This document shows positions 21,038-59,974 of a DNA stretch of 64,000 nt, piece by piece. Source of the stretch: Cyanidioschyzon merolae. Lineage: Eukaryota. Within the stretch, counting starts at the first letter, position 1; each line of letters opens with the position of its first letter. The notes under the pieces were generated by a model. That model made no database searches. It was not told the origin of the DNA and saw only the letters and a list, made by a program, of their open reading frames with translations. The stretch lies in the NCBI GenBank assembly GCA_000091205.1, contig AP006502.2. The stretch is one strand, 5' to 3'. A program made the position numbers and the translations under genes.

Positions 21038-21799
21038 GCCCTGCGCCTCGACAGCGTCCACTTTCTGCCATAGCTACACCTATGTCCTAGAAATACATCG
21101 ATCAAGGACGCGCGTCGTGTGGTATTCCTCAGTGCCGCAACCACGGAATCCCGCAGTGCAAGTCCCGTTATCGCTAACGAGATGAAGCGTCGCATCGTAC
21201 CGCGAAGGAGCATCTGACGCTCGATGCGCTGTATCGCGCTCGCGAATATAGCTGTCGCTCATTGCGATAGCTGTCTGTGAGACCATTACGGGCTCAAGTC
21301 GAAGCGTAAAAAGAAGCCAGTGCCCTCAATCTACATCGCTTTCAGGACCTACTATGACTCTGCTGCCTCGCCACAAACGAGCAAACGCTGCAGCGAGCGT
21401 CCATCGGTCCGTACTGCTCAGATGCACGCGCACAAACAGCGACATGGTTCGCTATCCCAGTCTATATATATGTCAGATCTGAAGGTGGTGTCCCCGATGG
21501 TTCAAGTGACGTTCAGGTTCGTGATTCTCTCCACTTATCGATCGATAAAATGCAGCGGGATCGCTGGCGCGCGTACCGGCACCCGTGTCGGAAACAGTGT
21601 CGAGAATTTTATCGATCTCCTCGCAGCATTGGATTCTTCCAACAAATTAATCTGTTTACAAATCCCATATTTGATCGTAGTTGCAACGAAATCGACAAAG
21701 TTGTTCGCACCTGTTCCACCAGCGCTAAAGCGACGCGACACAGCAACGCGGAAATCATCAGTGGAGCGAACAATGCCTCGCACCCATGGGCGGCAAATA

Positions 21800-22130
21800 C
21801 AGACACTCACGCGCAGACGCTTCCCAGACTTTTTAGACCGGCAGTCCGGTATCGGCGGCAGCTCTTGCGTCTACAAGTTGAGCATCAGAGGCTGCACTAC
21901 AAAGTCGGATCGCGCCTGCTCCTCGGGTCTCGTCCTCAGCACCGCACATCGTATGATATTGGTGGCGGCGTTCAAGTCTCGGTTCACGAACTCCATGTCT
22001 GCATCGACGCTGGTTGAACGCACCATGGCGAGGAATCGTCGAACTCGTGCCCTCTGTGCCAATTGGTGCACTGTCAGCTCTGCATGCTTTTCTATCGCCG
22101 AAGCGCTGCGCGGCTTTCGCTGCATGTCGT
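21800..22130 (-). pseudogene. TnpB/Fanzor-like nuclease remnant, copy 2 (C-terminal RuvC-III region; upstream part decayed)
   Basis: The ORF 21871..22125(-) contains VDADMEFVNRDLNAATNIIRCAVLRTRPEEQARSDFVVQPLMLNL, which aligns to the copy-1 tail NRDCNAAINIRRCAVMEERPPALTRENFMGQPLKAEL. About 300 nt here are ~75% identical to 59320-59600. Confidence 0.45.
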
Positions 22131-27346: not shown

Positions 27347-27371
27347 TTAGAGTCTCAGTAGACGCAATGGG

Positions 27372-27407
<36 letters not shown>

Positions 27408-34947: not shown

Positions 34948-35592
34948 CGAATTGCATGCATATGAACTGCAGGGGATCCGCGGCCTTTCGAGATGCGTAT
35001 GGGGTTTCTCCATACAGGTCAATGGTTACCAGGTAAATGTCGCGTTTGCGGTCGATGCATCTATTCAGCATACGCGCGCTGCTTTGTTGGATCATGCTCA
35101 ATATCTATCCGAGCATGGTTTCTCGCGTGCAGCGCACAGTGCGAGAATCGCGCTGGGTGCACCGCTTTGACGATATCCGGACTTGATACGCGTTCGCGAT
35201 AGCGTTTCGCAAGCCCTTTGGTGCCCGGCACTTGCTACCGAAGTACTGCGCTGCGTACCATGGCAGACATCGAGGGTGTGACACGAACGAGTTCGCCGCG
35301 CACGCTCCTGCGGTGTCTCGGTAATGGTGCCGCGCTCCGGCTCAAGCAGACTCGTACCCGAGTATCCATCGACGAGAAGCATTACCCGCAGCAGGATTCT
35401 GGTGAGCAAAAGCACGGCCGCTGAGGAGGTGCCCTTCATAGCAGCTAGAGGCCGCAAGCAGTCGTCCACAGATGGAGCTCTTGGGACGCAGGCATAGTTC
35501 CCTACTGTACCCGGTGGCAGAGCAACATCCGCAGCAGGTGATGTGGTGTCCCGCGTATCCATGCGATGTACAGGAATGGCGGTGGTGCACGT

Positions 35593-35615
35593 CTTCTTCT
35601 TCTTCTTCTTCTTCA
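35593..35615. repeat. (CTT)n microsatellite
   Basis: cttcttcttcttcttcttcttct, read directly; it appears as polyK in the minus-strand ORF. Confidence 0.85.
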
Positions 35616-36183
35616 GATCGTCGTCCTTGCGGGAATGCGATTCCTTGTTCGATGCCGCGCGATGCTCACCGCGAGTCGCGCTCCAGACCCGACGAGGATT
35701 GTCAGAAACCTGGATGCTTCGCCCGCAATGCGCCATATTCAGCGCTCGGGCTTGAGACCTCGCGCCGTGCGGGAGCATTGCACGCATTCGTGCTTGTCCT
35801 AGTGTCCTGCGGAAAATCGCTGCCTCGGCTCGGGATTCCCACACTCGAGCGACGTCGCATTGCATCGCATCGCATCGGATCGGATCGTATCCAGACGAGT
35901 TGCTGCCATGCCAATGGTCACGAAGCGCCCCGCGGCATCTCCTCAGTTGGCATCGTGCCGCCGCCGCCGCCCTGCACCCGAGACAATCGAAAATCGCAGG
36001 TTCACAGCTCCAACAGAATTTTGGTTACTTCTCTCTGAACAGCACACATACCGCATATCCACGAATCATGCGTATTCGAGGACGATATCACGGGTATAGG
36101 TGTCGTCTTCGCCGTCGATCTCTTGCCTCAGGTCCACACCATCGAGGCGTCTTCTCGAATCCGGGTCGGAGTTTCAAGTACCG

Positions 36184-44700: not shown

Positions 44701-47700
44701 GCACTCCCGGACAGCACCACAGATGCATCGCTGCCACGCGGGATATGTGCTGGCAGGATTGCGCTACACCGCCAGATGCGGGTACACAATGTATCCACGC
44801 GAGCCTCCATGGAGCGCAACGAGGCCAACACATGGACTAGGTCTCCATCGAAGCGATTGGACAGGTTGTGCAGGGCATCGAGGGCGATGCTGAGACGCCC
44901 ACTTGCTGTCGTACCAGCAGCGAGCGCATTCGCCGGTGCAACCTCGCACCGCAAACTGTCCCCTGTTACCCAACGATCGATGAGTGCATCTGGAGGTTGA
45001 TCAGCACTCGGCACACGCCCAGATACCACCATTGATGCGACTTGGGCTGCTCGTTCACCGCTCACACGAGACGCTGCCTCGAGCTCCGATTCACTGGGCT
45101 GCAGAGCGGCAAGCACATCTGTTTGCGTGCCCGTCGAGGCCACGTCAGGTCGCTGGTGCTGGTCGTGCGTCGTCACCCGCTCTGCCGCTGAACGCAACGA
45201 CGCCAGTTCCGTGCGCAGCGTATCACGTTCCTGTTCAAGTCGAATAACCTGTTCTTCAAGGATTTGCTGTGTTTCATAGGCATCTTCTTCGGATCGTTCC
45301 AACATTTTCTGCAGTGAAACAAGTTGGGTTTCGAGGTCCGCGATACGTTGCTCTCGGGAGCCTGCGTCGATAGCAGGGTCGAACGATGTATCTGCTCGCA
45401 GTACGGTAGCGAATCGATCCTCGCTCGAAGAACGCAGAGGCGGTGCCTCACTCGCAGGATAGCGCGGACTTGCGGAGCCGCTGCCGCTAGCGTCTTCAGC
45501 GGCACTTTCGATCACTGCATCTGAGGGTGCCCCGTCAGCCCCAGTATTCGTACGATTTTGGGACTGGATGTAGTCCTCGAGCGCTCGCAACCGCTCTCGC
45601 AAGTGCGCATTCTCGATTCGCACGAGTTCCGATGCGCTATCCTCGCCTCGCTCTGCATCCTCGAACTGGTTCAGGAGAATCATCAACCGCTCATTCTTCT
45701 GCCGTTCTTCGGCGAGTGCGCGTTCCAATATCCTGACATCAGTGATATCGCATGCTGACGACTCTGACGTCTCGTCGATGTACGCGTGCGCTTCGTTGCT
45801 TCGGAAATGATCCGCAGTCGTTCGCTCCGCGGGATCGCGGAAAACTCCACTATGCACGTGCTGTGCTGGCAGAACGCTCGACCCGTCATCGACGTGTGCA
45901 CCAGCGTTCCTCAGTTGCTCGTTCTCTAGGGCGAGCGCTTCGCACGCTTTCGATATCGACTCCACATCGCGCTGGCGGCTCTGTAATGCCTGCTCCAGCG
46001 ACGCCACCTGTTCCGTTAGTCGCCGTACCAAATCCTCGCGCTCAGTTAACTGGTCACGAACGAGCCTCAGTTCCTCCCTAAAACGCGACTCTGAGCCGCG
46101 CAGAAGCGAATCTGCATAATCCTGACTCTCACGAAGGCTCCTGCGGAGCATTTCAACTTCTTCTTTGGATGCCAACAGCGCCTCGTCTTGTTTTCGAATC
46201 ATTCTTTTGTATTCGTCGAGCTGAGCCACCATATCCTCGAGTTCTCGGATTCGCATCTGCATGGCTCGAATCTCATTTGATGATTTGTTTGTGGTGTCAT
46301 CGAAGTGCCGGTTATCGATAGATAACGAGCCGGGCGTCGCAAACTCCTTTGCGTTTCGAGGTGACGCACTCACCCCAACCTCAGCGGACTTGAGAGTCGA
46401 GCCCTGCATCTCGGTATCAGAAGGCGGAACCTCTTGCTCCACATACTCGTGAAGAAGGCGTTTTTGGACGCAGTCATATACAGGCTCCATAATGGAGACA
46501 AGTTCTTGAGGAAAGATATACATATGTCCAAGTTCTTCAACTAGACCAGATCCTTGACGGGATTCGGTCGTCAAGACGCCTCTCGCGAAGCGTTGTTCCA
46601 GCAGCAGTCCAGGAGAGCCCGTGATCGCCGCTGCAAAGTATGCCGACGCTCGCACATCATCCAAGTAAGAAGCAAAGCGCATCAGTCCAATGCGTTTCCG
46701 CACAATACCGACCAGGGTTCTTGGCGATATCACCAGCGATTCCGCTTCTGCACACTCGAGTTCCATGCACTCGGCGATCGCCAGCGCTGCGAGGCCGCGG
46801 ATATGCACGAAGAGCATACCTTCAGCACGGCTTCCCGACGATGAGACCAGGTCCATCAGCAGCGGCACATTCAGCGGTGTGGACAAGAACTTTTGGCGTG
46901 CTCTGTCTGAAACATACAGCCAACAGCACAGGAGCAGCAACAGCGCTAGTCGCACTAATGGAGGACTGTTTTCGCGCACCGCACGCCCCAACGTACGCAG
47001 CAGCTTCATAAACAGAGGCTCACCTGCTGAGCATTCGCCCGTGAGCGCACCAGCACCTAGGACGACACGATATCTAGATACTGGCATCAGCAGCGGGTCC
47101 TGGTCGGCCACCGATGAACCCTGAGCACAGCAGCGTACCATCCACGACGCCAACAGCGAGCACGCGTACAATACAGCAGCTGGGTCAGCTTCATCGGGCC
47201 AGCCGACAGCAACACCCAGCAGTTCAGAGACAACGCGCTGGAGCGCATGAGCAGTGCGTTCATCGATCGATTCGACGTCCTTCAATACTTCGGAAGCGTG
47301 CGGATTACTGGAGGCGGGATCGACGGCACCACAAGTCTGACGCTTGTCTGCCAACATCCAGGTGAACCAGCACAAGCCTGATTCGCTTTCCAGCCATACC
47401 ATAGAAAGAAAGCAGAACGCTGCTGCTCGCAGCTCCTGTGATGCGTGCTCCGTCATCATGTCCAACACGAATGCAAGAAAAAGCGTATGCACCTCTTTCC
47501 CGTTTGGTGCCCGGCTGGTACGTGCTTGGCTGGAATCATCGACTTCAGCGACAACAACCCAAAGTCCATGCAAGAATGATAGGGTCGCGACGTGATCTCG
47601 AGACAGGCGGCCTAAAGTCAGAAGACCTTGGACAACGACGGCGTCCGCGTTGCGAGCACTACAAATCAAGCGCGCGATGCTCTCTGTAACACCGTAATGG

Positions 47701-49106
47701 AGACAAAGTGCTCGAGTCCGTGGTTCCTTGTTCGTAGACTCGGCGCGCGACAAGTGATCGACTAAACCAATCGTCAAAATCAGGTTGTCCACTTGCACGG
47801 GTCGCAGTGCTTTCGCTGGATGATCAGCCAGGAACAAGAGCGGACAGAGCTTTGGGATGCAACCAGCCTCGGCGAAGAGCGTCGCGATCGCCGGATCACC
47901 ATCCAGCAAAATATCCATAAAAATCAGACAGTCTCGCGTGACCAAGTCCATGACGTCTGACGTGGACGCCAACACCATCGGTACATGTTGTTGCTGTCGT
48001 AGACTCTCGTCGGATGCAGATGTTCTCGCTAGCGACTCTGACTGCGGGCGGCCGGATGCTGGAAAGCCATCCGTATCATCTGTTTCTGAGTTATCGTCGG
48101 CATCGCCGTTTTCAGCAGGTGCGTATCTCCGAGATATCTGAACCTCATCGCTCTGCTCATCGACATGGACACTGACTTCCTCATAGCGTGCCTTGTCGAT
48201 CATTTCGAACAAAAGTTCGAAAATATTTTCAAAAGCAAGTATTCTCTGGATTTCCCCGCTGTTGCGCGAGAGCTCCATGACGAGACGGAGGCCGTAGGTT
48301 CGTACCACCTCGCGCGGGTCCCGCAGTAAATCCATCATTCGCGAGACTCCTCGCGGGCAGCGAAGAACGGCTTTCTGTAATGGTGGCAGGGCATGCCTCG
48401 CGATATGCGTCAGCAAGTCGGACACCTGAAGCCGAACGGAGTAGTCACCGTCTGCGAGCAAGTCGAGCAGGCACGGTACAAGACCCAGTCCCGCTCGCTC
48501 GGAAGCGGTGACGGGTGGACTGGCGGCACCGAGCATCATAGACACAGCGGTGCGTATCGTGGACGCTGTGTCGGCACTCCACTTCCGCCAAATGTCTTCG
48601 TTTCGGTGCAACGGCGCAACGGCTTCCTTCGATTGGCAGCTGGTATTGCTTCGACGTCGCACGAGCGAACGCCTCTCTGAAGAGGCGGCCTGCGTGCTGT
48701 CCTCGAGCGAGCCCGCAAGACTCACGGTCGGCGCACAGAGAAGCAGTTGTAGCAAAGCGAGCGTACTTTGGATAAGTTCAGACTCCGTCCTGTCCTGCTC
48801 GAGGATAGCTCCCAGAAGAGGCACGCCCTTCGTTACCAACTCTTCCCGGAGGCTCAGCGCGACCCGCAGCGCTTCTGAGACCTCGTCACAGGCATCAGCA
48901 TCAGCCTGCTCTAAGAGCTCGGCGACCTTATCGTCTGCCGCAGTCACCCGTCGGAGCAGGACCTCGACACACTGGAGACGTTCAGAGGGAAACCGCCCAC
49001 AATGCAGCCGGTGTATAATCAGGTCGAGCGCTTCTGTAACACCAGAGGTGGCCGGATTACGGTCAGCTCCAGCAACGTAGCGCGCTGCCTTGGTGATCAA
49101 GTTCAT
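41742..49106 (-). CDS. USO1: General vesicular transport factor p115 / Uso1-like golgin with an unusually long coiled-coil tail (2454 aa)
   Basis: The N-terminal armadillo region aligns to p115 (SRMMDLLRDPREVVRTYGLRLVMELSRNSGEIQRILAFENIFELLFEMI versus SRLMDLLADSREVIRNDGVLLLQALTRSNGAIQKIVAFENAFERLLDII). About 1500 aa of heptad-rich coiled coil follow, with polyD acidic tracts. The ATG at 49104-49106 was verified. Confidence 0.8.
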   Translation of the reverse strand: MNLITKAARYVAGADRNPATSGVTEALDLIIHRLHCGRFPSERLQCVEVLLRRVTAADDKVAELLEQADADACDEVSEALRVALSLREELVTKGVPLLGAILEQDRTESELIQSTLALLQLLLCAPTVSLAGSLEDSTQAASSERRSLVRRRSNTSCQSKEAVAPLHRNEDIWRKWSADTASTIRTAVSMMLGAASPPVTASERAGLGLVPCLLDLLADGDYSVRLQVSDLLTHIARHALPPLQKAVLRCPRGVSRMMDLLRDPREVVRTYGLRLVMELSRNSGEIQRILAFENIFELLFEMIDKARYEEVSVHVDEQSDEVQISRRYAPAENGDADDNSETDDTDGFPASGRPQSESLARTSASDESLRQQQHVPMVLASTSDVMDLVTRDCLIFMDILLDGDPAIATLFAEAGCIPKLCPLLFLADHPAKALRPVQVDNLILTIGLVDHLSRAESTNKEPRTRALCLHYGVTESIARLICSARNADAVVVQGLLTLGRLSRDHVATLSFLHGLWVVVAEVDDSSQARTSRAPNGKEVHTLFLAFVLDMMTEHASQELRAAAFCFLSMVWLESESGLCWFTWMLADKRQTCGAVDPASSNPHASEVLKDVESIDERTAHALQRVVSELLGVAVGWPDEADPAAVLYACSLLASWMVRCCAQGSSVADQDPLLMPVSRYRVVLGAGALTGECSAGEPLFMKLLRTLGRAVRENSPPLVRLALLLLLCCWLYVSDRARQKFLSTPLNVPLLMDLVSSSGSRAEGMLFVHIRGLAALAIAECMELECAEAESLVISPRTLVGIVRKRIGLMRFASYLDDVRASAYFAAAITGSPGLLLEQRFARGVLTTESRQGSGLVEELGHMYIFPQELVSIMEPVYDCVQKRLLHEYVEQEVPPSDTEMQGSTLKSAEVGVSASPRNAKEFATPGSLSIDNRHFDDTTNKSSNEIRAMQMRIRELEDMVAQLDEYKRMIRKQDEALLASKEEVEMLRRSLRESQDYADSLLRGSESRFREELRLVRDQLTEREDLVRRLTEQVASLEQALQSRQRDVESISKACEALALENEQLRNAGAHVDDGSSVLPAQHVHSGVFRDPAERTTADHFRSNEAHAYIDETSESSACDITDVRILERALAEERQKNERLMILLNQFEDAERGEDSASELVRIENAHLRERLRALEDYIQSQNRTNTGADGAPSDAVIESAAEDASGSGSASPRYPASEAPPLRSSSEDRFATVLRADTSFDPAIDAGSREQRIADLETQLVSLQKMLERSEEDAYETQQILEEQVIRLEQERDTLRTELASLRSAAERVTTHDQHQRPDVASTGTQTDVLAALQPSESELEAASRVSGERAAQVASMVVSGRVPSADQPPDALIDRWVTGDSLRCEVAPANALAAGTTASGRLSIALDALHNLSNRFDGDLVHVLASLRSMEARVDTLCTRIWRCSAILPAHIPRGSDASVVLSGSAEAKMTLQRTTVGACTAPEVGTCVAPLEALPELFAYALRKNQAIARERAAGYGAFRVEVLILEEILIKGLALGALKDAAVKLFGYLKPGYAEAGPVSHAVGSWQRLEDAFAELRRSETQLAELETQYRSVCDERDRLRSECASLGHAVAAQQAAQTQLAELETQYRNVCDERDRLRSECASLGHAVAAQQAAQTQLAELETQYRNVCDERDSLLEHASRLESVQETCTNLKSELDAHVHEKALLNSRIRSLEEDLAQVSHSFTVLREQHADCDGQTAELQRLEELVQLYQTRIEEYEEALTAATRDRRRLEDLEDSMRTITRRCEELESERRELEISLEQAQADREKLAELEARNRELESKSETRDAELEELSAQVLLLQETLASREDQVQHLQSQVQNLQNALGLEREEALAAEKQYEEISHELQSQLDRVLAEHAETQLAHDECVAELHQTNQRLATAEEQQEALCARIHMIEAEHHRWRRALTDQITGVIDATASEVSACASTVHFWRDKQFAIIDRQLDMLTDQQATLQECELEFDNLQAQIRAVILSAGATGTEQVADSEARRNERSPQPVPAVLAMHGEHDPDDNDGDDDHDDDDDHAESAIRADKAFAGEQHTHQVQLVRDAYERQLAELESRHEASMREMMRVHEQVLQELEEEIEHLRTIALASSHKRAFDEASAPETTQYRASPENDSSASYDVDGPAADPASVDALQRSLVKERMASGDLRQENIRLQTCISALRARLAAWEHAQHPNASGTRASVLAGTPNDDDDDDDDNGDDQVSSREALTDTNLPRLEPAHPSDDTRGSHSQHMETAAELPSSAAAQRDLIAQLEKQIEELIARESRLASAVEMVHDENMLLRKQLAEQHHHDKRAQPQQPWRATHVNELDASGADSSQHAWLPSSAFATASAAVPATGAAVVKAQEQEQDATQVHVDPRAADMEAELWRLREEHNELLICLAEMEMECNAYKERLRKLLQP
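42359..42386. repeat. (GTC)n microsatellite, polyD-coding within USO1
   Basis: gtcgtcgtcgtcgtcgtcgtcgtcg, read directly. Confidence 0.85.
44068..44372. repeat. 114-bp (38-aa) coding tandem repeat, ~2.7 copies, inside the USO1 coiled coil
   Basis: The protein repeat is QLAELETQYR(S/N)VCDERDRLRSECASLGHAVAAQQAAQT, present twice plus a partial copy. The DNA copies are near-identical with period 114. Confidence 0.9.
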
Positions 49107-51457: not shown

Positions 51458-52930
51458 AGCACTAGCGCTACGTTCGTAGGCGCTCGCACACGCGAATCTG
51501 CATCATCGCGTAGCGCTCACGCTCATCGCCCGAATACGCTCATGGCTACGCGAACATTCATACAATCGTCAGGGCTGCCTGTCTTGCGAGTGCCTTTCAC
51601 ACGCGTGCTCGCTCACGGGTATGCTGCATACCTGCTCTGGTGCGTGGCTGTCTCTGATCTACGGCACGGTAGCGAGATGGTGTCGCGAATACACTTTAGA
51701 AGAGGTCTGCGCGCATTCGGGCTCTGCACATGTATACCAAGCCTCGGTGACGCCTCGTCTATTTCCTGAAGCGCATCAGATGCAAGTATGCAGTCATAGC
51801 GGCCTCTGACGGACTTGCGGTACCATCCGAGGTTCATATTCTCGATGCCTGCATGCTACGAGGGCACTGCAACTGGCTCAGTGGTGCATACGTTTCAGCC
51901 GGTGAGCAAATGCTCAGCAGTTGCTCGTCGAGATTTGTTTCGGAAGCAATAGAAGCCCCCTGTACATTCTAAACGGTGCTCGTTGTACAAGTATTGCATA
52001 GCGCTTGGTTCAGAGTCGGTACGGATTTCTTTCCGCCTGCGGAGGCGCCGCGGCCGTTCCGAGCGCTGCTTAGCTATCGGATGCCTGCAAAGCATAACGT
52101 GTCGGTGCTTTGAACGCTCGTTTCGTGCTTCTTGTTCCAGTGATTCCAGAACGAATTCATGGTATCTGAAGACGAGTCTCGAGGGCACAGTTCCATCAGA
52201 GGGCATACAATGAGCACGACAAGCTTTACGCGTGCGTTCTACGCTCGATACATCGCGACTAGGGTCCGAATTCGGCACTTGCCTCTCACATTGAAGCGGA
52301 ATCGAGTTGGGCACTGTTACCAGTGTCCAAACGTACATCATGAGCGTCTTGGAAGCCACTTGTGGAACCTGTCGAGACTCTTGCGGCCAACTGAAGTACG
52401 TCGCGAGCAGGCGTCAACAGCAAGCGGCGCCAGTGCTGGCGTAAACTCGAACCGGAGACATTCAGTGTACACTGTAACGTTTTCGAGGGGTTCGTGACCA
52501 GACTGAGAGGAGGTCAACGCACTGTCCCGTTTCGTCACGCGAGAGACGTTTCAAGTCACGGCCCAGAGGCAAAGCACTCCTACGCAGCTTCCGTGCCTAA
52601 GATTCTTGATGCTTCACAAAACTTATATTTTCCTGGGTCCCGTTTATAACAAGAGTCATATTACACTACAGTCGGGCACGAGATACTGGAATGGAACACG
52701 ACAGCCCCACCATGTGTGAGCGTGCCTGAGCGTTATCGCTTCGCGCACTCTGGAACGGTGGACTCTCACATCCCCAAGGACGGCAAAAGATCACACAAAG
52801 GCAGTCCTATTTGTACACATATATACGATGATGATCCGTTTCGCGGGCATCATGCGCTGCATACACGGTCTCGCACCAGCGCTGACGTCCCGCAAGACAT
52901 CTAGGTCCTGCGAGGCGCGGTTCAGTGCTG

Positions 52931-55897
52931 ATGTGGGCGCTATTCGAAAGAAAAGTCGAATGGAGCGCTCTTCACTCGGCTCACGCTTTTCATCTTGATA
53001 AGTATACTATAGATAGTTTGTTCCGTAGCGATTCCTTGGCGAAATCGGGGCAGTTGCACTTGGGGGCTCGGCACGGGTACACGAGCGGCACCGCTGTGCG
53101 GCAAGGCGAGTTGAGCTGGGTGTCGCCGGTTTGTTCGGGACTATTCGTAGCGCTCTCTGGGCGTTTAGTACAGAGACAGTGTTCTGGATGGAACGGTTTT
53201 GCGGCCGCACCGAGGCGTAGGCGTCGCGGCCAGCGCTGCGTTCTAAGCGTCAATCAACCTAAGGAAGAGCCGTCACCGCAACGAGCGCCACCTGCACACC
53301 CAGCGCCAACGCTACATCAGCCGCAGCCGCTGCCACTACAGCAGCAGAATCAGCAGCAACCTCAACAGGCAACGGTGAACGCGTCACCGCTGTCGCTGTC
53401 GCCTTCGCTGCAGCAAGCGGAACAGCACTCGGCGCCCAAGTCGAGCACAACCCGCGTGCCAGCCTACAGCGCTCCGGTTGAACAGACCTTCCCAAGCCCA
53501 GACACCAGTACTGGCGAGCCTCTGAAATCTGAAAAGAATGGGAACACGTCTGCAACAGGGAAACATGCTTGCGAAGCCGATGCTACGCTGGACGCTATCT
53601 CCGCTAAAGTGATGCGAGAAATCCTGGGACCTCTCGTTGCTTATCTGGGCCCAGTGCCGTGCTTCAGCATTGAGCAGGCATTAAGTTTTGTGCTTAAGAG
53701 TCGCGCCGCCAAGGGAGAACATGTGTCTGAAGCTAGCCTCGAGCGCGCCACCGGGATCACGAGTATTCTCGCAGAACTCCAAATGGATAGCGATACGATT
53801 ATCGCGGGAATCTTGACGGAGCTCGTGGAGAGTGGCGTTGCATCCCTGGCCTCCATCGCGGAGCAGTTTGGCAATGCTGTTGCGCGCCTCATTGAGGGCG
53901 AGGCAAAAGTCAGCCGCCTACCTGAAATGGCCGAGAGTCCGATAGCTGATGAAAACGTTGAAAACCTACGCCAAATGTTCATCGCCATGGCTTCCGATTT
54001 TCGTATCATCGTTATCAAGCTCGCAGCTCGCCTGCACACCATGCGAACACTGCAGACGCTCCCAGCAGAGCGCCAACGACGAATCGCTCGGGAAACACTG
54101 GACATCTTTGCACCGCTAGCGCACCGCCTAGGAATCTGGTCAGTGAAGAGCCACTTGGAGAATCTCGCCTTTCTCTATCTCTACCCCGAAGAGTACCGGA
54201 AGATTCGGTCTCATATCGAGGGGCGCATGCCCTCCTACAAACGGATTCTGGAGGAGAGCAAAGCGCGCCTCGAGCATGCGCTGAGCAGCGATCCAATCCT
54301 CAGGCGCACGGTTAGTCGTATTGAGGTTGCAGCGCGTTCCAAGGAAATCTATTCCATTTGGCAGAAACTACAACGCGGACGCGCACAGCGCCTGGATCAT
54401 ATATACGACCTGGTTGCGTTGCGGGTGACGATTGATCCGCGCGAGGACCTGTCCGTAGTCGGCACGAGCGGTACAAATGAAATGGATCGAGATGAGGCCG
54501 AGAAAACGCGGCTCCGCGATGACGAGAATGGGCTCTGCTATTACGTGCTCGGTATCGTCCATCAACTGTGGCACCCCGTTCCCGGACGTGTGAAGGACTA
54601 CATCGCTTTTCCGAAACCGAATGGCTATCAGTCACTGCACACCACGGTCGTGGTAGACAACGGCTCCGATCAGGCACCGCTCGAGGTTCAAATTCGAACC
54701 CGGGCGATGGATCGCACAGCAGAGTACGGTATGGCTGCACACTGGTACTTCAAGGAACATGACCAACTGACGGCCGCCGCGTCCAACTCCTGGTTAACGA
54801 GCATTCAAGAGTGGAATCTGGATATCCAGTCTTCTCACGAATTTGTGGAACTTGTAAGACGCGAATTGCTCGGCAACCGGGTTTTTGTGTTCGTGAACGA
54901 TACGAATACCGAGAACGCGACCCGCATCCTGAATCTACCTCGAGGGTCCACGGTGGTGGATGTTGCATTCGCGATCAGCGCAGATGCCGGGTACCGCATG
55001 ATCGCGGCGAAAGTGAATGGCTCGATGGTACCCATGAACTACGTTCTCCAAAATGCGGACATGATCCAGATCGTGCGGAGCAAGTACTCACCAGGTCCCA
55101 GCTTGGAGTGGGTCCAGTACGCGAAGACGAGGCTTGCGCAGCATGCGCTGCGGCAGTTTTTCGCCCGTTGGCAAGGTGAGACGGAGCTTCCAAAACATTT
55201 TACGAGTGCTGCGGATCCGGACCTCGAGTCTGGGAGTAGCGCAAACGACAAGAATGGTGAGCCAGGTATCGACGGGAACTCGTCGAAAGCGGCTTCTAAT
55301 GAGGAACGCCAGTTCCGCTGGGATCGTTCACAGCGCAGCGAAGACGCCGTGAACAGCTTCCTAAGTAGCATGAAGCCAGAAGACCTTCTCGATGATATGT
55401 GCTTACAAATCTCGCCTGCTCAACTCGTTTTCGAGGACGGACTCGAAATCGCTTCCGCGTCCATGGCGCGCTGCTGCCTGCCTCTGCCGAGCGACAAAAT
55501 TTTCGGTGTCATCGCAGACGGTGCCAGTCAGGTGGAAATTCATCGACAGGGATGCGCAGTAGGGCAGCGCGCCCTAGTGCAGACCAGCGGCGCGCGCAAA
55601 CTCTCCGTCCAGTGGCAGAGCCCAGCGCGTAGCGGGACCACGCGTGCAGCACGGCTTCCCGCTTGTCTGAAAGTGACCTGCATTGATCGAAATGGCCTTC
55701 TCAGCGATGTCAGTCGGGCAGTTATTGAAAAAGGCATCACAATTCTGTCGACCCGAAGCACCTCTACGCAGAACACAGCTTACCTGGAGTACTGCGTTGC
55801 TGTCATCAATCGAACTGAACTTGATTCCTTATGTGCCGCCCTGCGCGATATCCCTGGGGTTGTCACCGTGGAAGACGGCTTGGCGCCGCACGTCTAA
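52931..55897 (+). CDS. Long RelA/SpoT homologue (RSH): degenerate HD hydrolase, intact (p)ppGpp synthetase, TGS and ACT domains, with a ~230-aa N-terminal extension
   Basis: The synthetase motifs are present: RSKEIYSIWQKLQRG, DLVALRVTI, GYQSLHTTV and EVQIRTRAMDRTAEYGMAAHWYFKE. The HD region aligns to SpoT, but the catalytic HD reads TE (IIAGILTELVESG). A TGS-like segment (RVFVFVNDTNTE ... VNGSMVPMNYVLQNADMIQIV) and a C-terminal ACT domain (LKVTCIDRNGLLSDVSRAVIEKGITIL) follow. The N-terminal extension is Q/P-rich. Confidence 0.85.
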   Translation: MWALFERKVEWSALHSAHAFHLDKYTIDSLFRSDSLAKSGQLHLGARHGYTSGTAVRQGELSWVSPVCSGLFVALSGRLVQRQCSGWNGFAAAPRRRRRGQRCVLSVNQPKEEPSPQRAPPAHPAPTLHQPQPLPLQQQNQQQPQQATVNASPLSLSPSLQQAEQHSAPKSSTTRVPAYSAPVEQTFPSPDTSTGEPLKSEKNGNTSATGKHACEADATLDAISAKVMREILGPLVAYLGPVPCFSIEQALSFVLKSRAAKGEHVSEASLERATGITSILAELQMDSDTIIAGILTELVESGVASLASIAEQFGNAVARLIEGEAKVSRLPEMAESPIADENVENLRQMFIAMASDFRIIVIKLAARLHTMRTLQTLPAERQRRIARETLDIFAPLAHRLGIWSVKSHLENLAFLYLYPEEYRKIRSHIEGRMPSYKRILEESKARLEHALSSDPILRRTVSRIEVAARSKEIYSIWQKLQRGRAQRLDHIYDLVALRVTIDPREDLSVVGTSGTNEMDRDEAEKTRLRDDENGLCYYVLGIVHQLWHPVPGRVKDYIAFPKPNGYQSLHTTVVVDNGSDQAPLEVQIRTRAMDRTAEYGMAAHWYFKEHDQLTAAASNSWLTSIQEWNLDIQSSHEFVELVRRELLGNRVFVFVNDTNTENATRILNLPRGSTVVDVAFAISADAGYRMIAAKVNGSMVPMNYVLQNADMIQIVRSKYSPGPSLEWVQYAKTRLAQHALRQFFARWQGETELPKHFTSAADPDLESGSSANDKNGEPGIDGNSSKAASNEERQFRWDRSQRSEDAVNSFLSSMKPEDLLDDMCLQISPAQLVFEDGLEIASASMARCCLPLPSDKIFGVIADGASQVEIHRQGCAVGQRALVQTSGARKLSVQWQSPARSGTTRAARLPACLKVTCIDRNGLLSDVSRAVIEKGITILSTRSTSTQNTAYLEYCVAVINRTELDSLCAALRDIPGVVTVEDGLAPHV

Positions 55898-57004: not shown

Positions 57005-57898
57005 TCATTCCTGGTTCATTCCCATCGGATGGAAGAACTGCTTCACCGGTGCGAAGGATCGACGATGGATGGGGCTGGGCCCGAGCTCACGCAGCAGCTC
57101 CAGATGCCGTGGAGTCGGATATCCCTTGTTGTCTGCAAACTCATAACCGGGGTAGTGTTTGTCCAGGTTCTCCATGAGTCGATCCCGAGTGACTTTGGCA
57201 ACGATGCTCGCCGCGGCAATGCTCAAGCTAGACGCATCGCCGTTGACGATTCCGAAGAACTCTGTGGCGGATGCGTTGTGCGCGTTCCGCTCATTTTCTC
57301 GTTTCAGTGTGGCCGGGAGCGATCCGTCAATAAGGGCAACTGCAGGCGAGCCGTTCCGCAGCGCTTGTAGAGCCTTCTGCATCGCGATCACGGTCGCTTC
57401 GAGGATGTTGACGGCGTCGATGACGTCCGCTTCGACGATGCCAACGCCCACGTCCACCCCAGTGCGCGGGTCCAACAGAAGATCGTAAATTTCGTCGCGA
57501 GCGAATGGAGAGAGCTTCTTCGAGTCGTTGAGGTTTTCGATCCAGAGGTCGCGCGGCAGAACGCACGCGGCTGCGACCACTGGACCGGCGAGGCTGCCGC
57601 GTCCGGCCTCGTCGACACCGGCCAAGCGGAAGGCATCCTCTCTGGAAGAACTGTAAAACGCACGCTCTAGCTCGCCTAAGAGATGAAGTCGATTCTTCTC
57701 TTTCTCGGTGAGCAGGTGGGTGAGGCGCGAGTCTCGACGCAGAATGCGGTACTCGGAGTCGTCGGAGAAGCCCCGCACGGTCACGTAGGTATGGGCTGCA
57801 GCTCCAAGTGCGCTCAGAGCACCCCTGCTTCTCCGCATTGCGCGCTTTGGAAACCGGCATGCACGGCACCACCGCGACAGAGAGACCAAATACGCCAT
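57005..57898 (-). CDS. Ribonuclease HII (bacterial RnhB type) with an N-terminal organelle-presequence-like extension
   Basis: The catalytic motif is GVDEAGRGSLAGPVVAAACVL, followed by DSKKLS ... . The N-terminal ~55 aa are Arg-rich (MAYLVSLSRWCRACRFPKRAMRRSRG). The ATG at 57896-57898 was verified. Confidence 0.8.
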   Translation of the reverse strand: MAYLVSLSRWCRACRFPKRAMRRSRGALSALGAAAHTYVTVRGFSDDSEYRILRRDSRLTHLLTEKEKNRLHLLGELERAFYSSSREDAFRLAGVDEAGRGSLAGPVVAAACVLPRDLWIENLNDSKKLSPFARDEIYDLLLDPRTGVDVGVGIVEADVIDAVNILEATVIAMQKALQALRNGSPAVALIDGSLPATLKRENERNAHNASATEFFGIVNGDASSLSIAAASIVAKVTRDRLMENLDKHYPGYEFADNKGYPTPRHLELLRELGPSPIHRRSFAPVKQFFHPMGMNQE

Positions 57899-59159
57899 GA
57901 CTGCGCTGCAAAAGCGGTATGTTCGTAGTTACATAGACCCAAGAGGAAAGACGTAGAGCTGGTGCAATGTGCGCCCGCGCCATGCCAGCGCTGTGAAACA
58001 TTCGCATCTGGAGATGTGCTGGTATGGGGCGCGCTTACTATCACCCGGTGCTGCGCTGAACGGGATCACGTCGGGACGACACACGCTCCGGCACGCTTCG
58101 AGTGTTCGTCGTTGTTTCCAGTTGGACCTGGTCGTGTCTCGCCACGTACGAAATCTCTGCTCTTTTGAGGGATGCCCGCCGGACGCGACGGCAACTCGTT
58201 CTTCGAGGCGTCGCCTCGTTGGCGCTGCCTCCAGCGTGTTACGCCCAAGCTCTGTTTGGTGTTGCTCAGGTGACTGGGCCAGTGGCGTCAGTCTGAGCAC
58301 TGTATTCTGTTGCCACGGTAAGCAACGTGTGTATATGTTTGTTTATGTACAGGGTGCAGAGCAGCGCGTTGCGGGATACCGTCCTGCCCTGGCTTGTTGC
58401 TGCTGGTAAGGTGCTGTGCGCTCTCTGGGCGCACGGTGCTCATTTGTCATAGGTTCTTCAGGGATTTGTTTTGCATCCATATGAGCTGGTCCTTTTGCTA
58501 CGGTTGCACGTAGCGTAGAGAGCTACAGGTCCGCTCCCGGGGCACTACAGGCGCTGCCAACCAAAAAACATGTGCTCGCGGGTACCAGGAGCACGAATAT
58601 GTTCGTGACGCTCCGAGGCTCTACTTCGCTCCGCGAAAAACTGGAAACGCTTTTGCGTTCTACAGCTTTCGCCTACGCTGAATACGGAATTCTTTATTGC
58701 TGACGGACCTGCGAAGTTACCTAGCTCCCGCGTATGCCCAAACTGTCGCCTACAACCTGGGCAGCACGCGCAGCTCCACATGCGTCAAGCGCTCGCAGTG
58801 CGGAACAGGATCCGCAGCTCGGGCACGAAGTGAGCAGCAACGGTATCTGCCCTGTATCGAAAAGGACGGTGAGTTGCTGCATCTTCTCGAACCAGAACAG
58901 AATTGATTGATGCGCGCGCCCAGTCATTCGATGAACGATCCTCAGGTGGTCCGTAGCATTCACATCATGGGCTGGGCATTTCAACGAAGCACCTTCAAAA
59001 CCGAGAGCCTGGTGCATGCCTGCATGCGGGGAGTTCCGATGGATACGCAGGGCCACGTTCGCATCTGTCGAGGCTGGACAGACGCCCACATTGATGGTCT
59101 CATCCGCGAATCGCATTGCCTGCATGGTGCCTGGAACGGCGTCCTGTGCCGGCCGGGGT

Positions 59160-59650
59160 TCCTATTCGGCTAAGACGATCGTACATACCGACTTGTCATT
59201 ACCAGAGCGCATGCGGAGTTGCTTCCGTATCCGGGTATCAAAGCAGCCTGTTCTTTGCGTTAAGGGCTCGGACAATGCCCAGCGAAACATTGAATGTCCC
59301 ACGACGGTAGAGTGTATAAAGACACCCGCGCGCAGACGCTTCCCAACGTTTCTGGACCCACCGACTGCTATCGGTTTCAATTTCTCTTTGCAAACTTGGA
59401 GCTTGAGAGGATGTCCCGCAAAGTTGGCTGGTACCAGCTCCCCGGGTTTCGTTTTCAGCACCGCACATCGTCGGATGCCGTTGACGTGTCGGTTCACGAA
59501 CTGCATGCGTTTATTGCATCTGATGGAACTCACCATTGCAAGGATTCCTAGAACTAGCGCCCTCTGTGCCACTACAGCCTTGTCATCGTCCGGTCGGGCA
59601 AACACCTTTTCTTGTCTGTCTCTCATCGTCATCTTCTTCCTCGTCACGTG
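59160..59650 (-). pseudogene. TnpB/Fanzor-like nuclease remnant, copy 3 (degenerate RuvC-III region)
   Basis: The ORF 59162..59647(-) contains RALVLGILAMVSSIRCNKRMQFVNRHVNGIRRCAVLKTKPGELVPANFAGHPLKLQ, which aligns to the copy-1 tail. The catalytic D is replaced by H, and there is a 2-aa deletion in NAAxNI. The nucleotide sequence is ~75% identical to copy 2. Confidence 0.4.
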
Positions 59651-59974
59651 CTTATCTTCGCTCGATGGTCGGCGAGATGAGGATTTTTTCGTTTTTTCGG
59701 CAGCCGGTGGCGGCGGTCCTCATGGTTCCCAACTGTCATGTCCATACGTTTCCCACGTCTTTTATATTTGAAAATGAACGCACTTCGAACACATCTGCGA
59801 TAAACGGCGAAACGGCATTTGATGACACGCACCGAGCGGTGACTCTCCAACGAGGTAAACGACTATAGGAGAGAGAACCAGCCTCGCTAGCGCCGATGAT
59901 CTCATGGCAGCATGCAAAGCGCACACGCTGCTTTCCTCACCTGCACAGTAACATGCATTGTGTGCAGTATCTCC

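What the first reader, a model, noticed from the sequence alone, without database searches (positions are those of the whole stretch)
52931..55897. Nuclear-encoded long RSH with an inactivated hydrolase (HD to TE) but intact ppGpp-synthetase motifs and a long Q/P-rich N-terminal extension
Long RelA/SpoT homologues are bacterial or plastid-associated. This one is an uninterrupted 990-aa nuclear ORF with the full synthetase signature (RxKxxxS, DxxGxR, YxSxH, ExQIRT), plus TGS and C-terminal ACT domains. The hydrolase active-site histidine and aspartate are both substituted, making it RelA-like. The 230-aa extension before the conserved core, with a QQQNQQQPQQ run, is not a typical transit peptide. 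This suggests either an organelle-targeted alarmone synthetase or a cytosolic ppGpp system.
Basis: partly seen in the sequence, partly recalled or inferred. Interest (0 to 1): 0.6.

Follow-up and report, generated by a model that had tools for sequence, protein, structure and literature searches.

The report
Red-alga ppGpp synthetase with dead hydrolase
This is the already annotated nuclear gene for one of four RelA/SpoT-type alarmone enzymes of the red alga Cyanidioschyzon merolae; its ppGpp-degrading site has decayed while its ppGpp-making site is almost fully preserved, an ordinary division of labour among plant and algal enzymes of this family.

Summary
The ORF is real: ATG 52931 to TAA 55897, 988 aa (990 aa from GTG 52925). 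It is 100% identical to C. merolae 10D BAM83520.1/XP_005539556.1, "ppGpp synthetase/hydrolase Rel", on chromosome 20. Published RSH phylogenies already include it as an RSH1-family member.

The architecture is that of a full long RSH: HD_4, RelA_SpoT, TGS, zinc finger and ACT.

- **Hydrolase:** dead. All four Mn ligands are replaced (H53R, H77T, D78E, D144A), as are R44, D82 and N148. In 112 of 139 homologues this eight-residue signature is invariant.
- **Synthetase:** 19 of 20 signature residues match active Rel enzymes. A diatom enzyme with the same change is an active synthetase.
- **TGS domain:** the tRNA-sensing His is Ser.
- **Paralogue:** XP_005538788.1 shows the reverse pattern, with an intact hydrolase and a degenerate synthetase.
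- **N-terminus:** about 110 aa of basic presequence, then about 120 aa of disordered P/Q-rich linker.

Best reading: a hydrolase-dead, probably plastid-targeted, synthetase-only RSH1. It is functionally RelA-like but not a RelA family member. Activity and location are untested. Verdict: known gene, low interest.

The parts
52931..55897 (+). Complete intron-less CDS (988 aa plus TAA) of C. merolae RSH1-type long RSH, BAM83520.1 / XP_005539556.1
   Evidence: The ORF list and the translation, which is identical to P0127. An in-frame TGA lies upstream at 52883.
52931..53260 (+). Residues 1-110: N-terminal presequence, probably a plastid transit peptide. Phe is at position 5. Residues 61-110 carry 8 basic and 0 acidic residues. 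It ends in RRRRRGQRCVLSVNQP.
   Evidence: Composition and the alignment with the Cyanidiococcus and Cyanidium N-termini. AF2 pLDDT is below 50. Function is inferred, not tested.
53261..53614 (+). Residues 111-228: low-complexity P/Q/S/T-rich linker containing QQQNQQQPQQ. Predicted disordered and poorly conserved.
   Evidence: 33 of 118 residues are P or Q, and identity to Cyanidiococcus is 10-19%. pLDDT is 30-50.
53615..54145 (+). Residues 229-405: pseudo-hydrolase (HD_4) domain. The fold is kept and the catalytic site is lost: E263, R272, T296, E297, S301, A366 and T370 replace R44, H53, H77, D78, D82, D144 and N148.
   Evidence: Pfam HD_4 E 3.9e-44 over the full profile. 20 of 54 conserved columns deviate. 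The structural match to Rel N-terminal domains reaches TM 0.87-0.90.
53816..53821 (+). Codons ACG GAG = T296 E297, in place of the catalytic His-Asp pair.
54311..54775 (+). Residues 461-615: (p)ppGpp synthetase domain. Motifs: A468-R-S-K-EIYS, D493-LVAL-R498, R553-V-K-D556 (RXKD type), Y566-QSL-H570 and E585-VQI-R589-T.
   Evidence: Pfam RelA_SpoT E 1.7e-33. 19 of 20 signature residues equal the consensus. 4 of 44 conserved columns deviate. Codons were verified.
54332..54334 (+). Codon GCG = Ala468, in place of the 'essential' Gly (RelSeq G240 / SAS1 G45).
   Evidence: The substitution is shared by all Cyanidiophyceae orthologues, including Galdieria.
54893..55096 (+). Residues 655-722: TGS domain with a 6-residue insertion. 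Ser683 (54977-54979) replaces the His that reads the tRNA CCA end (B. subtilis Rel H420).
   Evidence: Pfam TGS E 1.1e-13. 7 of 16 conserved columns deviate.
55196..55336 (+). Residues 756-802: variable, predicted disordered insert between the helical domain and the zinc finger.
   Evidence: pLDDT is below 50 and conservation is low.
55466..55555 (+). Residues 846-875: zinc-finger / conserved-cysteine domain, ARCCLPLP...EIHRQGC.
   Evidence: The alignment with bacterial Rel keeps the CC..H..C pattern. The region is confidently modelled.
55655..55873 (+). Residues 909-981: C-terminal ACT/RRM domain.
   Evidence: Pfam ACT_4 E 1.1e-11. The model shows a beta-alpha-beta-beta-alpha-beta fold.

Best explanation
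The ORF encodes a nuclear-encoded member of the RSH1 family ('red RSH1' subclade) of C. merolae. It has become a monofunctional (p)ppGpp synthetase.

**Proposed working.**
- An N-terminal presequence of about 110 aa most likely delivers it to the plastid. This step is inferred.
- The synthetase domain transfers the beta,gamma-pyrophosphate of ATP to the 3'-OH of GDP or GTP. This is inferred from the intact ATP and GDP/GTP-binding and catalytic residues D493 and E585, and from the Rel-type RXKD motif.
- The former hydrolase domain keeps its fold but can no longer bind Mn2+ or ppGpp. It would survive as a structural or regulatory partner of the synthetase, as in E. coli RelA.
- The TGS, helical, zinc-finger and ACT domains probably autoinhibit the enzyme or dock it on plastid 70S ribosomes. 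Sensing of uncharged tRNA is probably weakened, because the key TGS His is Ser.
- ppGpp breakdown would be done in trans by the paralogue XP_005538788.1. That protein keeps every hydrolase residue but has a degenerate synthetase site.

**History.** Hydrolase loss appears to have begun in the common ancestor of Cyanidium, Cyanidiococcus and Cyanidioschyzon. It has gone furthest in C. merolae.
For: **Identity and setting.**
- The protein is 100% identical to BAM83520.1/XP_005539556.1, which lies on a 1,621,617-bp contig.
- The neighbouring ORFs are eukaryotic housekeeping genes: Uso1/p115, DnaJ, COPB', Dph, Pol phi and MTHFR.

**Architecture.**
- Full long-RSH domain set by Pfam and TIGR00691.
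- PDB sequence hits to Rel/RelA at about E 1e-100.
- Foldseek: RelA 5iqr E 4e-36, and Rel N-terminal domains with TM up to 0.90.

**Hydrolase dead.**
- The signature R44 H53 H77 D78 E81 D82 D144 N148 reads ERTEESAT here and in all 13 C. merolae-like metagenome variants. It reads RHHDEDDN in 112 of 139 homologues.
- 20 of 54 highly conserved HD columns deviate, against 4 of 44 in the synthetase (Fisher p = 0.0018).

**Synthetase kept.**
- 19 of 20 signature residues match.
- The domain is 83% identical to Cyanidiococcus.
- None of the 16 polymorphic sites seen in natural variants falls in it.
- The same G-to-A change occurs in PtRSH4a, which is an active synthetase (PMC6881373).

**Phylogeny.**
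- It is sister to Galdieria XP_005705328.1 with support 94.2/0.997/99, next to the diatom/CASH RSH1 clade that contains the bifunctional PtRSH1.
- Its branch is 0.61 against 0.25 for Galdieria.

**Paralogue.** XP_005538788.1 has RRSGEP..H..HD..ED..D..N intact but G240V, R241A, R269Q and EVQIFT.

**Graded decay.** Galdieria is intact. Cyanidium reads AHYDEEDQ. Cyanidiococcus reads EHHDESDM or QHYDESDT. A third lineage reads QHHQEHDA.

**N-terminus.** All four orthologue N-termini share an early Phe and the motif 'RRRR..VL..[VM][NS]QP'.
Against: - No enzymatic or localisation data for this protein could be found. Imamura et al. 2018, the one experimental paper on C. merolae RSHs, was not obtainable.
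- Gly240 is regarded as essential in bacterial RSH. Its substitution is widely used to infer loss of synthetase activity (PMC6881373).
- Avilan et al. list no predicted chloroplast transit peptide for this protein in Table S2, unlike the other three C. merolae RSHs.
- The first 60 residues contain 6 acidic residues, which is unusual for a transit peptide.
- The TGS domain deviates at 7 of 16 conserved columns, so ribosome/tRNA-type regulation is uncertain.
Confidence: 0.7

Rival explanations
1. A doubly inactive pseudoenzyme. The G240A change also kills the synthetase, and the protein acts only as a non-catalytic regulator, for example a ribosome- or nucleotide-binding scaffold.
For: - Ala468 replaces the Gly that was shown to be essential in bacterial RSH. 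That position is routinely used to call synthetase loss (PMC6881373).
- H594D is a further deviation in the synthetase domain.
Against: - All other ATP/GDP-binding and catalytic residues are intact.
- The domain is the least deviant of the catalytic domains, at 4 of 44 conserved columns.
- No amino-acid polymorphism falls in it among natural variants.
- The G-to-A change is shared with Galdieria, whose orthologue otherwise looks fully bifunctional.
- PtRSH4a (G to A) and PtRSH4b (G to S) are active synthetases.
Confidence: 0.12
2. An active synthetase that is not plastidial. It would be mitochondrial or cytosolic and give C. merolae an alarmone source outside the chloroplast.
For: - Avilan Table S2 lists no predicted transit peptide for this protein, whereas the other three C. 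merolae RSHs are marked 'C'.
- There are acidic residues in the first 60 aa.
- C. merolae has a Mesh1-like protein without the HD motif in the mitochondrial nucleoid. It has been proposed to sense (p)ppGpp (PMC11808204).
Against: - The RSHs of plants and red algae localised experimentally were reported to be chloroplast-targeted (PMC6881373; PMC10107265).
- Residues 61-110 are basic, free of acidic residues and rich in hydroxylated residues.
- An early Phe is typical of red-algal transit peptides. This point is established knowledge and was not tested here.
- The Cyanidium orthologue starts MSPAFVAYG, a classical rhodophyte-type N-terminus.
- The hydrolase-bearing paralogue is predicted to be plastidial.
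Confidence: 0.15
3. A bifunctional Rel, as the database name 'ppGpp synthetase/hydrolase Rel' implies, with hydrolysis carried out by substitute residues.
For: - The HD_4 profile is matched end to end and the fold is preserved.
- E81 (E300) is retained.
Against: - All four Mn2+ ligands are replaced, as are the ppGpp-contacting R44 (within the RKSGEP motif), D82 and N148.
- These positions are invariant in 112 of 139 homologues.
- The HD positions differ between Cyanidiococcus sequences (H/Y at H77, M/T at N148), as expected for a site no longer under selection.
Confidence: 0.03

Closest known systems
Galdieria sulphuraria XP_005705328.1 (P0005) and the diatom PtRSH1: the 'red RSH1' clade of Avilan et al. 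2019
   Same: These are the closest relatives: sister to Galdieria with 94.2/0.997/99 support, and 50% identity over the catalytic core. They share the HD-SYN-TGS-ACT architecture, the RXKD motif and, with Galdieria, Ala at G240.
   Different: Galdieria and the diatom proteins keep the complete hydrolase signature RHHDEDDN, and PtRSH1 is experimentally bifunctional. The window protein has lost that signature and evolved about 2.5 times faster (branch 0.61 against 0.25). Galdieria lacks the CC..H..C zinc-finger motif that the window protein keeps.
E. coli RelA (monofunctional long RSH; PDB 5iqr, 5kpv)
   Same: The functional layout is the same: pseudo-hydrolase domain, active-looking synthetase, then TGS, helical, zinc-finger and ACT/RRM domains. 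RelA is the best Foldseek hit (E 4e-36).
   Different: The origin is independent. The protein is not in the gamma/beta-proteobacterial RelA subgroup. The NCBIfam RelA equivalog scores 328.5 against a cut-off of 728. It has the Rel-type RVKD motif rather than the RelA-type EXDD. The TGS His (RelA H432 / B. subtilis Rel H420) is Ser.
Land-plant RSH1 (Arabidopsis At4g02260) and the C. merolae paralogue XP_005538788.1
   Same: They belong to the same extended RSH1 family, related to Deinococcus-Thermus Rel, with the same domain order plus an N-terminal extension.
   Different: The specialisation is the opposite. Those proteins keep the hydrolase and have a dead synthetase: Gly and Arg of GRxK are lost, and the paralogue also has R269Q and EVQIFT (PMC10107265). 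The window protein keeps the synthetase and has a dead hydrolase.
CmRSH4b (CMN082C) and other RSH4/CRSH enzymes
   Same: They are nuclear-encoded algal RSHs with a degraded hydrolase domain and a conserved synthetase. CmRSH4b is a demonstrated plastid ppGpp synthetase in the same organism.
   Different: They belong to a different family, the RSH4 clade. The C. merolae RSH4s lack a proper TGS, a zinc finger and an ACT domain, and their hydrolase domain is far more eroded. The window protein keeps the full bacterial-type C-terminal region.
Deinococcus-Thermus Rel (Meiothermus P0016; T. thermophilus Rel, PDB 6s2t-6s2v)
   Same: These are the best bacterial matches: 38-39% identity over 71-76% of the query, and 42-43% identity with TM up to 0.87 to the T. 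thermophilus Rel N-terminal domain. This fits the published link between RSH1 and Deinococcus-Thermus.
   Different: The bacterial enzymes are bifunctional with an intact HD site. They have no N-terminal extension and no insert in the synthetase or TGS domains.

Membership tests
Long RSH (RelA/SpoT homologue) superfamily | HD-type hydrolase domain plus RelA_SpoT synthetase domain plus C-terminal TGS and ACT domains in one chain | tested here: met
   Pfam finds HD_4, RelA_SpoT, TGS and ACT_4. TIGR00691 scores 500.7, at or above its cut-off of 499.2. PDB Rel/RelA hits reach about E 1e-100. Foldseek agrees.
RSH1 family, 'red RSH1' subclade (Avilan et al. 2019) | Phylogenetic placement with red-algal and CASH RSH1, next to Deinococcus-Thermus Rel | tested here: met
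   The published IQ-TREE and RAxML trees include this very accession. My own homology ranking runs Cyanidiaceae, then Galdieria, then a mix of diatom RSH1-like proteins and Meiothermus Rel. I did not compute an independent tree.
RSH1 family, 'red RSH1' subclade (Avilan et al. 2019) | [quoted passage not shown] | tested here: met
RSH1 family, 'red RSH1' subclade (Avilan et al. 2019) | Intact (p)ppGpp hydrolase domain, stated as characteristic of the extended RSH1 clade | tested here: not met
   The signature reads ERTEESAT in place of RHHDEDDN. This is a derived loss within the clade. Membership by descent stands, but the functional description does not apply.
Bifunctional Rel / SpoT (the database name of the protein) | Mn2+ ligands H53, H77, D78 and D144, plus R44, E81-D82 and N148 of the hydrolase site | tested here: not met
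   Seven of the eight residues are substituted. The NCBIfam SpoT equivalog PRK11092 scores 357 against a cut-off of 947.
RelA subgroup (proteobacterial monofunctional synthetase) | Membership of the gamma/beta-proteobacterial RelA clade, and the EXDD motif in place of RXKD | tested here: not met
   The NCBIfam RelA equivalog PRK10872 scores 328.5 against a cut-off of 728. The motif reads RVKD. The published tree places the protein in RSH1.
Active (p)ppGpp synthetase (functional class) | Catalytic and substrate-binding residues: G240-R241-x-K243, S247, D264, R269, RXKD, K304, N306, Y308, H312, E324, Q326, R328 (B. subtilis Rel numbering) | tested here: inconclusive
   All are present except G240, which is Ala468. 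An experimental precedent shows G-to-A is tolerated, in PtRSH4a. There is no assay of this protein.
Active (p)ppGpp synthetase (functional class) | Demonstrated (p)ppGpp synthesis, in vitro or by complementation | not testable with these tools
   This needs E. coli delta-relA delta-spoT complementation or an enzyme assay. No published data were found.
Plastid-targeted nuclear-encoded RSH | Cleavable N-terminal transit peptide and plastid localisation | tested here: inconclusive
   The presequence-like region 1-110 is conserved in layout across three genera and is disordered. However, Avilan Table S2 lists no predicted transit peptide. No targeting predictor or localisation data were available.
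RSH4 / CRSH | Placement in the RSH4 clade, no complete TGS/ACT region, and in green lineages C-terminal EF-hands | tested here: not met
   There is no EF-hand hit, and full TGS, zinc-finger and ACT domains are present. The tree places it in RSH1.

The most novel reading that the evidence does not exclude
The protein is an active alarmone synthetase that does not go to the plastid, or not only there. It would make ppGpp in the mitochondrion or cytosol of a eukaryote. It might feed the HD-less Mesh1-like mitochondrial nucleoid protein CMO005C, which has been proposed to sense (p)ppGpp. A milder and likelier version is that this is an independently evolved eukaryotic 'RelA'. Its stepwise loss of the hydrolase site is preserved as a series across Galdieria, Cyanidium, Cyanidiococcus and Cyanidioschyzon.
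Probability: 0.1. Interest if true: 0.7.

Novelty: already known. Interest (0 to 1): 0.2.

Why it matters
The finding matters little beyond the field. It confirms that C. merolae splits ppGpp synthesis and hydrolysis between two RSH1 paralogues, in the same way that land plants split them between RSH2/3 or CRSH and RSH1.

Two details are useful to specialists.

First, this is a member of the RSH1 family that has lost the hydrolase, whereas the accessible text of the main algal RSH survey describes that family as having an intact hydrolase. The database name "synthetase/hydrolase Rel" is therefore probably wrong by half.

Second, the four cyanidiophycean genera form a graded series of active-site decay. 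Substrate-binding residues went first and metal ligands later. This could serve as a natural experiment on how a bifunctional Rel turns into a RelA-like enzyme.

C. merolae is genetically tractable, so the predictions are directly testable.

Tried and rejected
**Searches that gave nothing**
- Imamura et al. 2018 (Plant J 94:327) is the only experimental paper on C. merolae RSHs. It is not held in the library. I therefore could not learn whether this protein was named, assayed or localised there.
- Searches for 'CmRSH1' and for the accession numbers returned nothing relevant.
- The supplement of a 2026 C. merolae TOR proteomics paper had no ppGpp or RSH entries. A 2025 translation-map paper had no supplement held as text. 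So I have no expression evidence and no CMT locus tag.

**Not possible with these tools**
- No transit-peptide predictor (TargetP, ChloroP or similar) is available. I used composition and cross-species alignment of the N-termini instead.
- I did not compute dN/dS. At 72% amino-acid identity to the nearest other genus, synonymous sites would be saturated. I used per-domain identity, a conserved-column deviation test and natural polymorphism instead.

**Considered and rejected**
- *Bacterial contamination or recent horizontal transfer.* The flanking genes are eukaryotic housekeeping genes. GC content is even across the window. Orthologues exist in four cyanidiophycean genera.
- *Wrong start codon or a hidden intron explaining the long N-terminus.* There is no Met between residue 1 and about residue 230. 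At the position where Cyanidiococcus and Cyanidium have Met ('MNQP', 'MSQP'), C. merolae has Val. The region upstream of it aligns across genera from the first residues.
- *Sequencing error at the HD motif.* HD to TE needs several base changes. The same hydrolase-site signature, including TE, is present in all 13 full-length natural variants.

**Error corrected**
- My first attempt at the synthetase signature used guessed residue positions and gave nonsense columns. It was redone with positions located by motif search.


Full report
**1. What is in the sequence**

A single uninterrupted ORF lies on the + strand from GTG 52925, or ATG 52931, to TAA 55895-55897. From the ATG it encodes 988 aa. 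An in-frame TGA lies 48 nt upstream, at 52883. '990 aa' corresponds to the GTG start that prokaryotic gene callers use.

**2. Whose gene it is**

The translation is identical, residue for residue, to P0127. That entry is BAM83520.1 / XP_005539556.1 / UniRef M1V7Y9, named 'ppGpp synthetase/hydrolase Rel [Cyanidioschyzon merolae strain 10D]'. It is recorded on a 1,621,617-bp contig, the size of chromosome 20.

The other large ORFs in the window are ordinary eukaryotic genes:
- CRAL/TRIO
- MTHFR
- malate/lactate dehydrogenase
- two DnaJ proteins
- COP-beta'
- DNA polymerase phi-like
- a 2,454-aa Uso1/p115-like protein
- RNase HII
- a diphthamide-synthesis protein

GC content is even at 0.51-0.59. 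The gene is thus a nuclear gene in its normal context. It is not contamination.

Two published surveys of the RSH superfamily already include it. Atkinson et al. 2011 counted four RSHs in C. merolae, two of them Rsh1. Their text speaks of 'Rsh1[HS], Rsh1[S] and Rsh4[S]' and of algal proteins with 'degrading HD domains' (PMC3153485). Avilan et al. 2019 list this accession as RSH1 and use it in their trees (PMC6881373).

**3. Architecture**

Pfam finds HD_4 (250-403, E 3.9e-44, whole profile), RelA_SpoT (469-611), TGS (666-715) and ACT_4 (909-981). NCBIfam TIGR00691 'spoT_relA' scores just above its cut-off. The RelA and SpoT equivalog models fall far below theirs.

The alignment also shows the CC..H..C zinc-finger motif, ARCCLPLP...EIHRQGC at residues 846-875.

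An AlphaFold2 model built on 76 homologues has these features:
- confident for residues 211-755 and 803-988
- pLDDT below 50 for residues 1 to about 205 and for 756-802

Foldseek against the PDB returns ribosome-bound RelA (5iqr, E 4e-36), B. subtilis Rel (6yxa) and full-length SpoT. The catalytic half superposes on the N-terminal domains of S. aureus, T. thermophilus and S. equisimilis Rel with target-normalised TM 0.8-0.9. So the fold of the former hydrolase domain is preserved.

**4. The hydrolase site is gone**

I use the HMMER alignment to B. subtilis Rel (6yxa), whose numbering coincides with RelSeq for these residues. A MAFFT alignment gives the same result.

| Role | Rel residue | Window protein |
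|---|---|---|
| ppGpp contact | R44 | E263 |
| Mn2+ ligand | H53 | R272 |
| Mn2+ ligand | H77 | T296 |
| Mn2+ ligand | D78 | E297 |
| catalytic pair | E81 | E300 (kept) |
| catalytic pair | D82 | S301 |
| Mn2+ ligand | D144 | A366 |
| active site | N148 | T370 |

The whole RKSGEP motif is also replaced.

Across 139 aligned homologues the eight-residue signature behaves as follows:
- RHHDEDDN in 112 sequences, covering bacterial Rel, diatom RSH1 and Galdieria
- ERTEESAT in the window protein and in all 13 full-length C. merolae-like variants from hot-spring metagenomes

I then took the 149 columns that are at least 90% conserved among 72 homologues outside the Cyanidiaceae. The window protein deviates as follows:

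| Domain | Deviating columns | Fisher test against synthetase |
|---|---|---|
| HD | 20 of 54 | p = 0.0018 |
| Synthetase | 4 of 44 | n/a |
| TGS | 7 of 16 | p = 0.005 |

The HD domain as a whole is still 76% identical to Cyanidiococcus. It is therefore under selection for something other than catalysis.

**5. The synthetase site is nearly intact**

Of 20 signature residues, 19 equal the consensus of bifunctional Rel enzymes. In B. subtilis numbering these are R241, K243, S247, D264, R269, the R295-x-K297-D298 motif, K304, N306, Y308, Q309, H312, E324, Q326, R328 and others.

Ala at that position is the commoner state among the homologues, 93 sequences against 34 with Gly.

The one real deviation is Ala468, in place of the Gly that precedes RxK (RelSeq G240, SAS1 G45). 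This glycine has been reported as essential in bacterial RSH. Its substitution is commonly used to infer loss of synthetase activity. However, Avilan et al. showed that PtRSH4a (Gly to Ala) and PtRSH4b (Gly to Ser) both complement E. coli delta-relA delta-spoT (PMC6881373).

The Ala is shared by all Cyanidiophyceae orthologues, including Galdieria. So it predates the hydrolase decay.

None of the 16 amino-acid polymorphisms among the natural C. merolae variants falls in the 155-residue synthetase core. About 2.5 would be expected by chance, so this is weak support only.

The RVKD motif is of the Rel type rather than the RelA-type EXDD. By established knowledge of that motif (Sajish et al., not tested here), this goes with a preference for GDP.

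**6. The C-terminal region**

TGS, helical, zinc-finger and ACT domains are all present.

In the TGS domain, the His that stacks on the 3' CCA of uncharged tRNA is Ser683. This is H420 in B. subtilis Rel and H432 in E. coli RelA. Its role is established knowledge from mutational and cryo-EM work on those enzymes. There is also a six-residue insertion before it.

The state of this position differs among relatives:
- Ser in Cyanidiococcus
- Asp in Galdieria
- His in Cyanidium, the diatoms, the bacteria and the C. merolae paralogue

Classical activation by deacylated tRNA on the ribosome is therefore doubtful for this protein. That is an inference.

**7. The N-terminal 228 residues**

They are not one block.

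*Residues 1-110.* They have a net charge of +9. Residues 61-110 have 8 basic and no acidic residues. They end in RRRRRGQRCVLSVNQP.

The N-termini of the Cyanidiococcus proteins (P0136, P0138) and the Cyanidium protein (P0140) align with it from their first residues. They share three features:
- a Phe within the first five positions (MWALF, MFLIS, MFLSL, MSPAF)
- an 'AVR' patch
- the motif 'RR.R...VL..[VM][NS]QP'

Where those species have Met in that last motif, C. merolae has Val. There is no other Met before about residue 230. So translation from the first ATG is required.

An early Phe is a known hallmark of red-algal and glaucophyte transit peptides. This is established knowledge and was not tested here.

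*Residues 111-228.* They are P/Q/S/T-rich (33 of 118 are P or Q), 10-19% identical to Cyanidiococcus (30% over the 80 alignable residues of Cyanidium) and predicted disordered. The QQQNQQQPQQ run is specific to C. merolae. [quoted passage not shown]

*Evidence against a transit peptide.* Avilan et al. list no predicted transit peptide for this protein, but do for the other three C. merolae RSHs. The first 60 residues include six acidic ones. Localisation remains unverified.

**8. Evolutionary setting**

In the published IQ-TREE analysis this protein is sister to Galdieria XP_005705328.1 with support 94.2/0.997/99. Together they sit beside the diatom/CASH RSH1 clade, the 'red RSH1' clade. That clade contains PtRSH1, which is experimentally bifunctional. 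The C. merolae branch is 0.61 and the Galdieria branch 0.25.

My homology search agrees:

| Relative | Identity |
|---|---|
| Cyanidiococcus and a related lineage | 72-73% |
| Cyanidium | 55% |
| Galdieria | 50% over the core |
| diatom RSH1 | 40-46% |
| Meiothermus Rel | 38-39% |

The hydrolase signature forms a series:

| Lineage | Signature |
|---|---|
| Galdieria | RHHDEDDN (intact) |
| Cyanidium | AHYDEEDQ |
| Cyanidiococcus | EHHDESDM and QHYDESDT, in different sequences |
| third lineage, P0003/P0138 | QHHQEHDA |
| C. merolae | ERTEESAT |

R44, the RKSGEP motif, D82 and N148 are lost in all three non-Galdieria genera. The metal ligands are lost piecemeal and differently in each lineage. 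The simplest reading is that activity was lost once, in their common ancestor, and that neutral decay of the remaining ligands followed. This is an inference.

The other three C. merolae RSH sequences come from the supplement of Avilan et al.. They complete the picture:
- XP_005538788.1 is RSH1 of the plant-type subclade. It has every hydrolase residue. Its synthetase carries G240V, R241A, R269Q and EVQIFT.
- The two RSH4 proteins have GRxK, D..ALR and EVQ[IV]RS, with badly eroded hydrolase domains.

On sequence grounds, C. merolae thus has one hydrolase and up to three synthetases.

**9. Most likely mechanism**

*Shown by sequence and model:*
- a long-RSH fold
- no Mn2+ or ppGpp site in the HD domain
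- a complete set of catalytic and substrate-binding residues in the synthetase, apart from G240A
- a retained C-terminal regulatory region with an altered TGS

*Inferred:*
- the protein is imported into the plastid
- it synthesises (p)ppGpp, probably favouring GDP
- its pseudo-hydrolase domain and C-terminal region regulate the synthetase as in RelA, but with a weakened or different trigger
- degradation is left to XP_005538788.1

I put this at 0.7.

*Rivals:*

| Rival | Confidence |
|---|---|
| doubly dead pseudoenzyme | 0.12 |
| active but non-plastid enzyme | 0.15 (overlaps the main reading in everything except location) |
| truly bifunctional Rel | 0.03 |

**10. Comparison with known families**

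The protein works like E. coli RelA but is not a RelA. It belongs by descent to the RSH1 family. There it is the mirror image of land-plant RSH1 and of its own paralogue. It is also an exception, unremarked in the accessible text, to the statement that the extended RSH1 clade has an intact hydrolase domain. That paper's Figure 4 marks probable inactivations by colour, and I could not see the figure.

The gene, its family assignment and the general phenomenon of monofunctional plant and algal RSHs are all known. I therefore rate it 'already known' and of low interest.

The small additions made here are:
- the full residue-level account of the hydrolase loss
- the graded series across four genera
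- the reciprocal pattern in the paralogue
- the Gly-to-Ala and TGS His-to-Ser changes

**11. What led nowhere**

- The key experimental paper, Imamura et al. 2018, was not available.
- Searches for names and accessions, and two omics supplements, gave nothing.
- No targeting predictor was available.
- A first extraction of synthetase columns used wrong positions and was redone.

Noticed in passing
window 57005-57898 (- strand): A 297-aa RNase HII ORF (Pfam PF01351, E 7e-35) lies convergent with the RSH gene. The domain starts only at residue 93, so there is a ~90-aa N-terminal extension, rich in R, S and A, that could be an organelle-targeting sequence.
   Followed up: partly
window 54944-54946 (codon for residue 672, TGS domain): Among C. 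merolae-like metagenome variants of this protein, three (P0001, P0126, P0130) carry G672E in the otherwise nearly invariant 'LPxG(S/A)T' motif of the TGS domain. This is further evidence that TGS function is under altered constraint.
   Followed up: partly
orthologues P0135/P0137 (Cyanidiococcus yangmingshanensis KAF6003709.1 and KAF6003710.1) compared with P0136 (KAK4531360.1): One Cyanidiococcus assembly annotates the orthologue as two separate proteins of 662 and 164 aa, both named 'MESH1'. Another assembly has a single 940-aa protein. The split and the name look like annotation errors. The two Cyanidiococcus sequences also differ at the former catalytic His (H or Y).
   Followed up: partly
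orthologues P0005-P0007 (Galdieria), aligned to window residues 838-880: The Galdieria orthologues lack the CC..H..C zinc-finger segment that C. merolae, Cyanidium, the diatoms and bacteria keep. They are about 200 aa shorter, yet retain an intact hydrolase signature.
   Followed up: no
window 41742-49106 (- strand): A very long 2,454-aa ORF has only weak Uso1/p115-head and TMF hits, so it is probably a giant coiled-coil golgin or tethering protein. The composition profile shows strong AT skew (-0.25) at 42-44 kb inside it.
   Followed up: no
window 27347-29281 (-), 24523-25695 (-), 21320-22138 (+), 35098-35865 (-), 59016-59771 (+): Five ORFs of 251-644 aa have no Pfam match at E <= 1e-4. They may be lineage-specific proteins or chance ORFs.
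   Followed up: no
window 52828-52930, upstream of the RSH start: Out-of-frame ATGs at 52828 and 52831 open a reading frame that overlaps the start of the RSH coding sequence. It would act as an upstream ORF if the 5' UTR reaches that far. The transcription start is unknown.
   Followed up: no
literature: C. merolae CMO005C (not in this window): A 2025 paper describes a Mesh1-like protein without the His-Asp motif in the mitochondrial nucleoid of C. merolae, and speculates that it senses mitochondrial (p)ppGpp. No mitochondrial ppGpp source is known. This is why the localisation of the present protein is worth checking.
   Followed up: no
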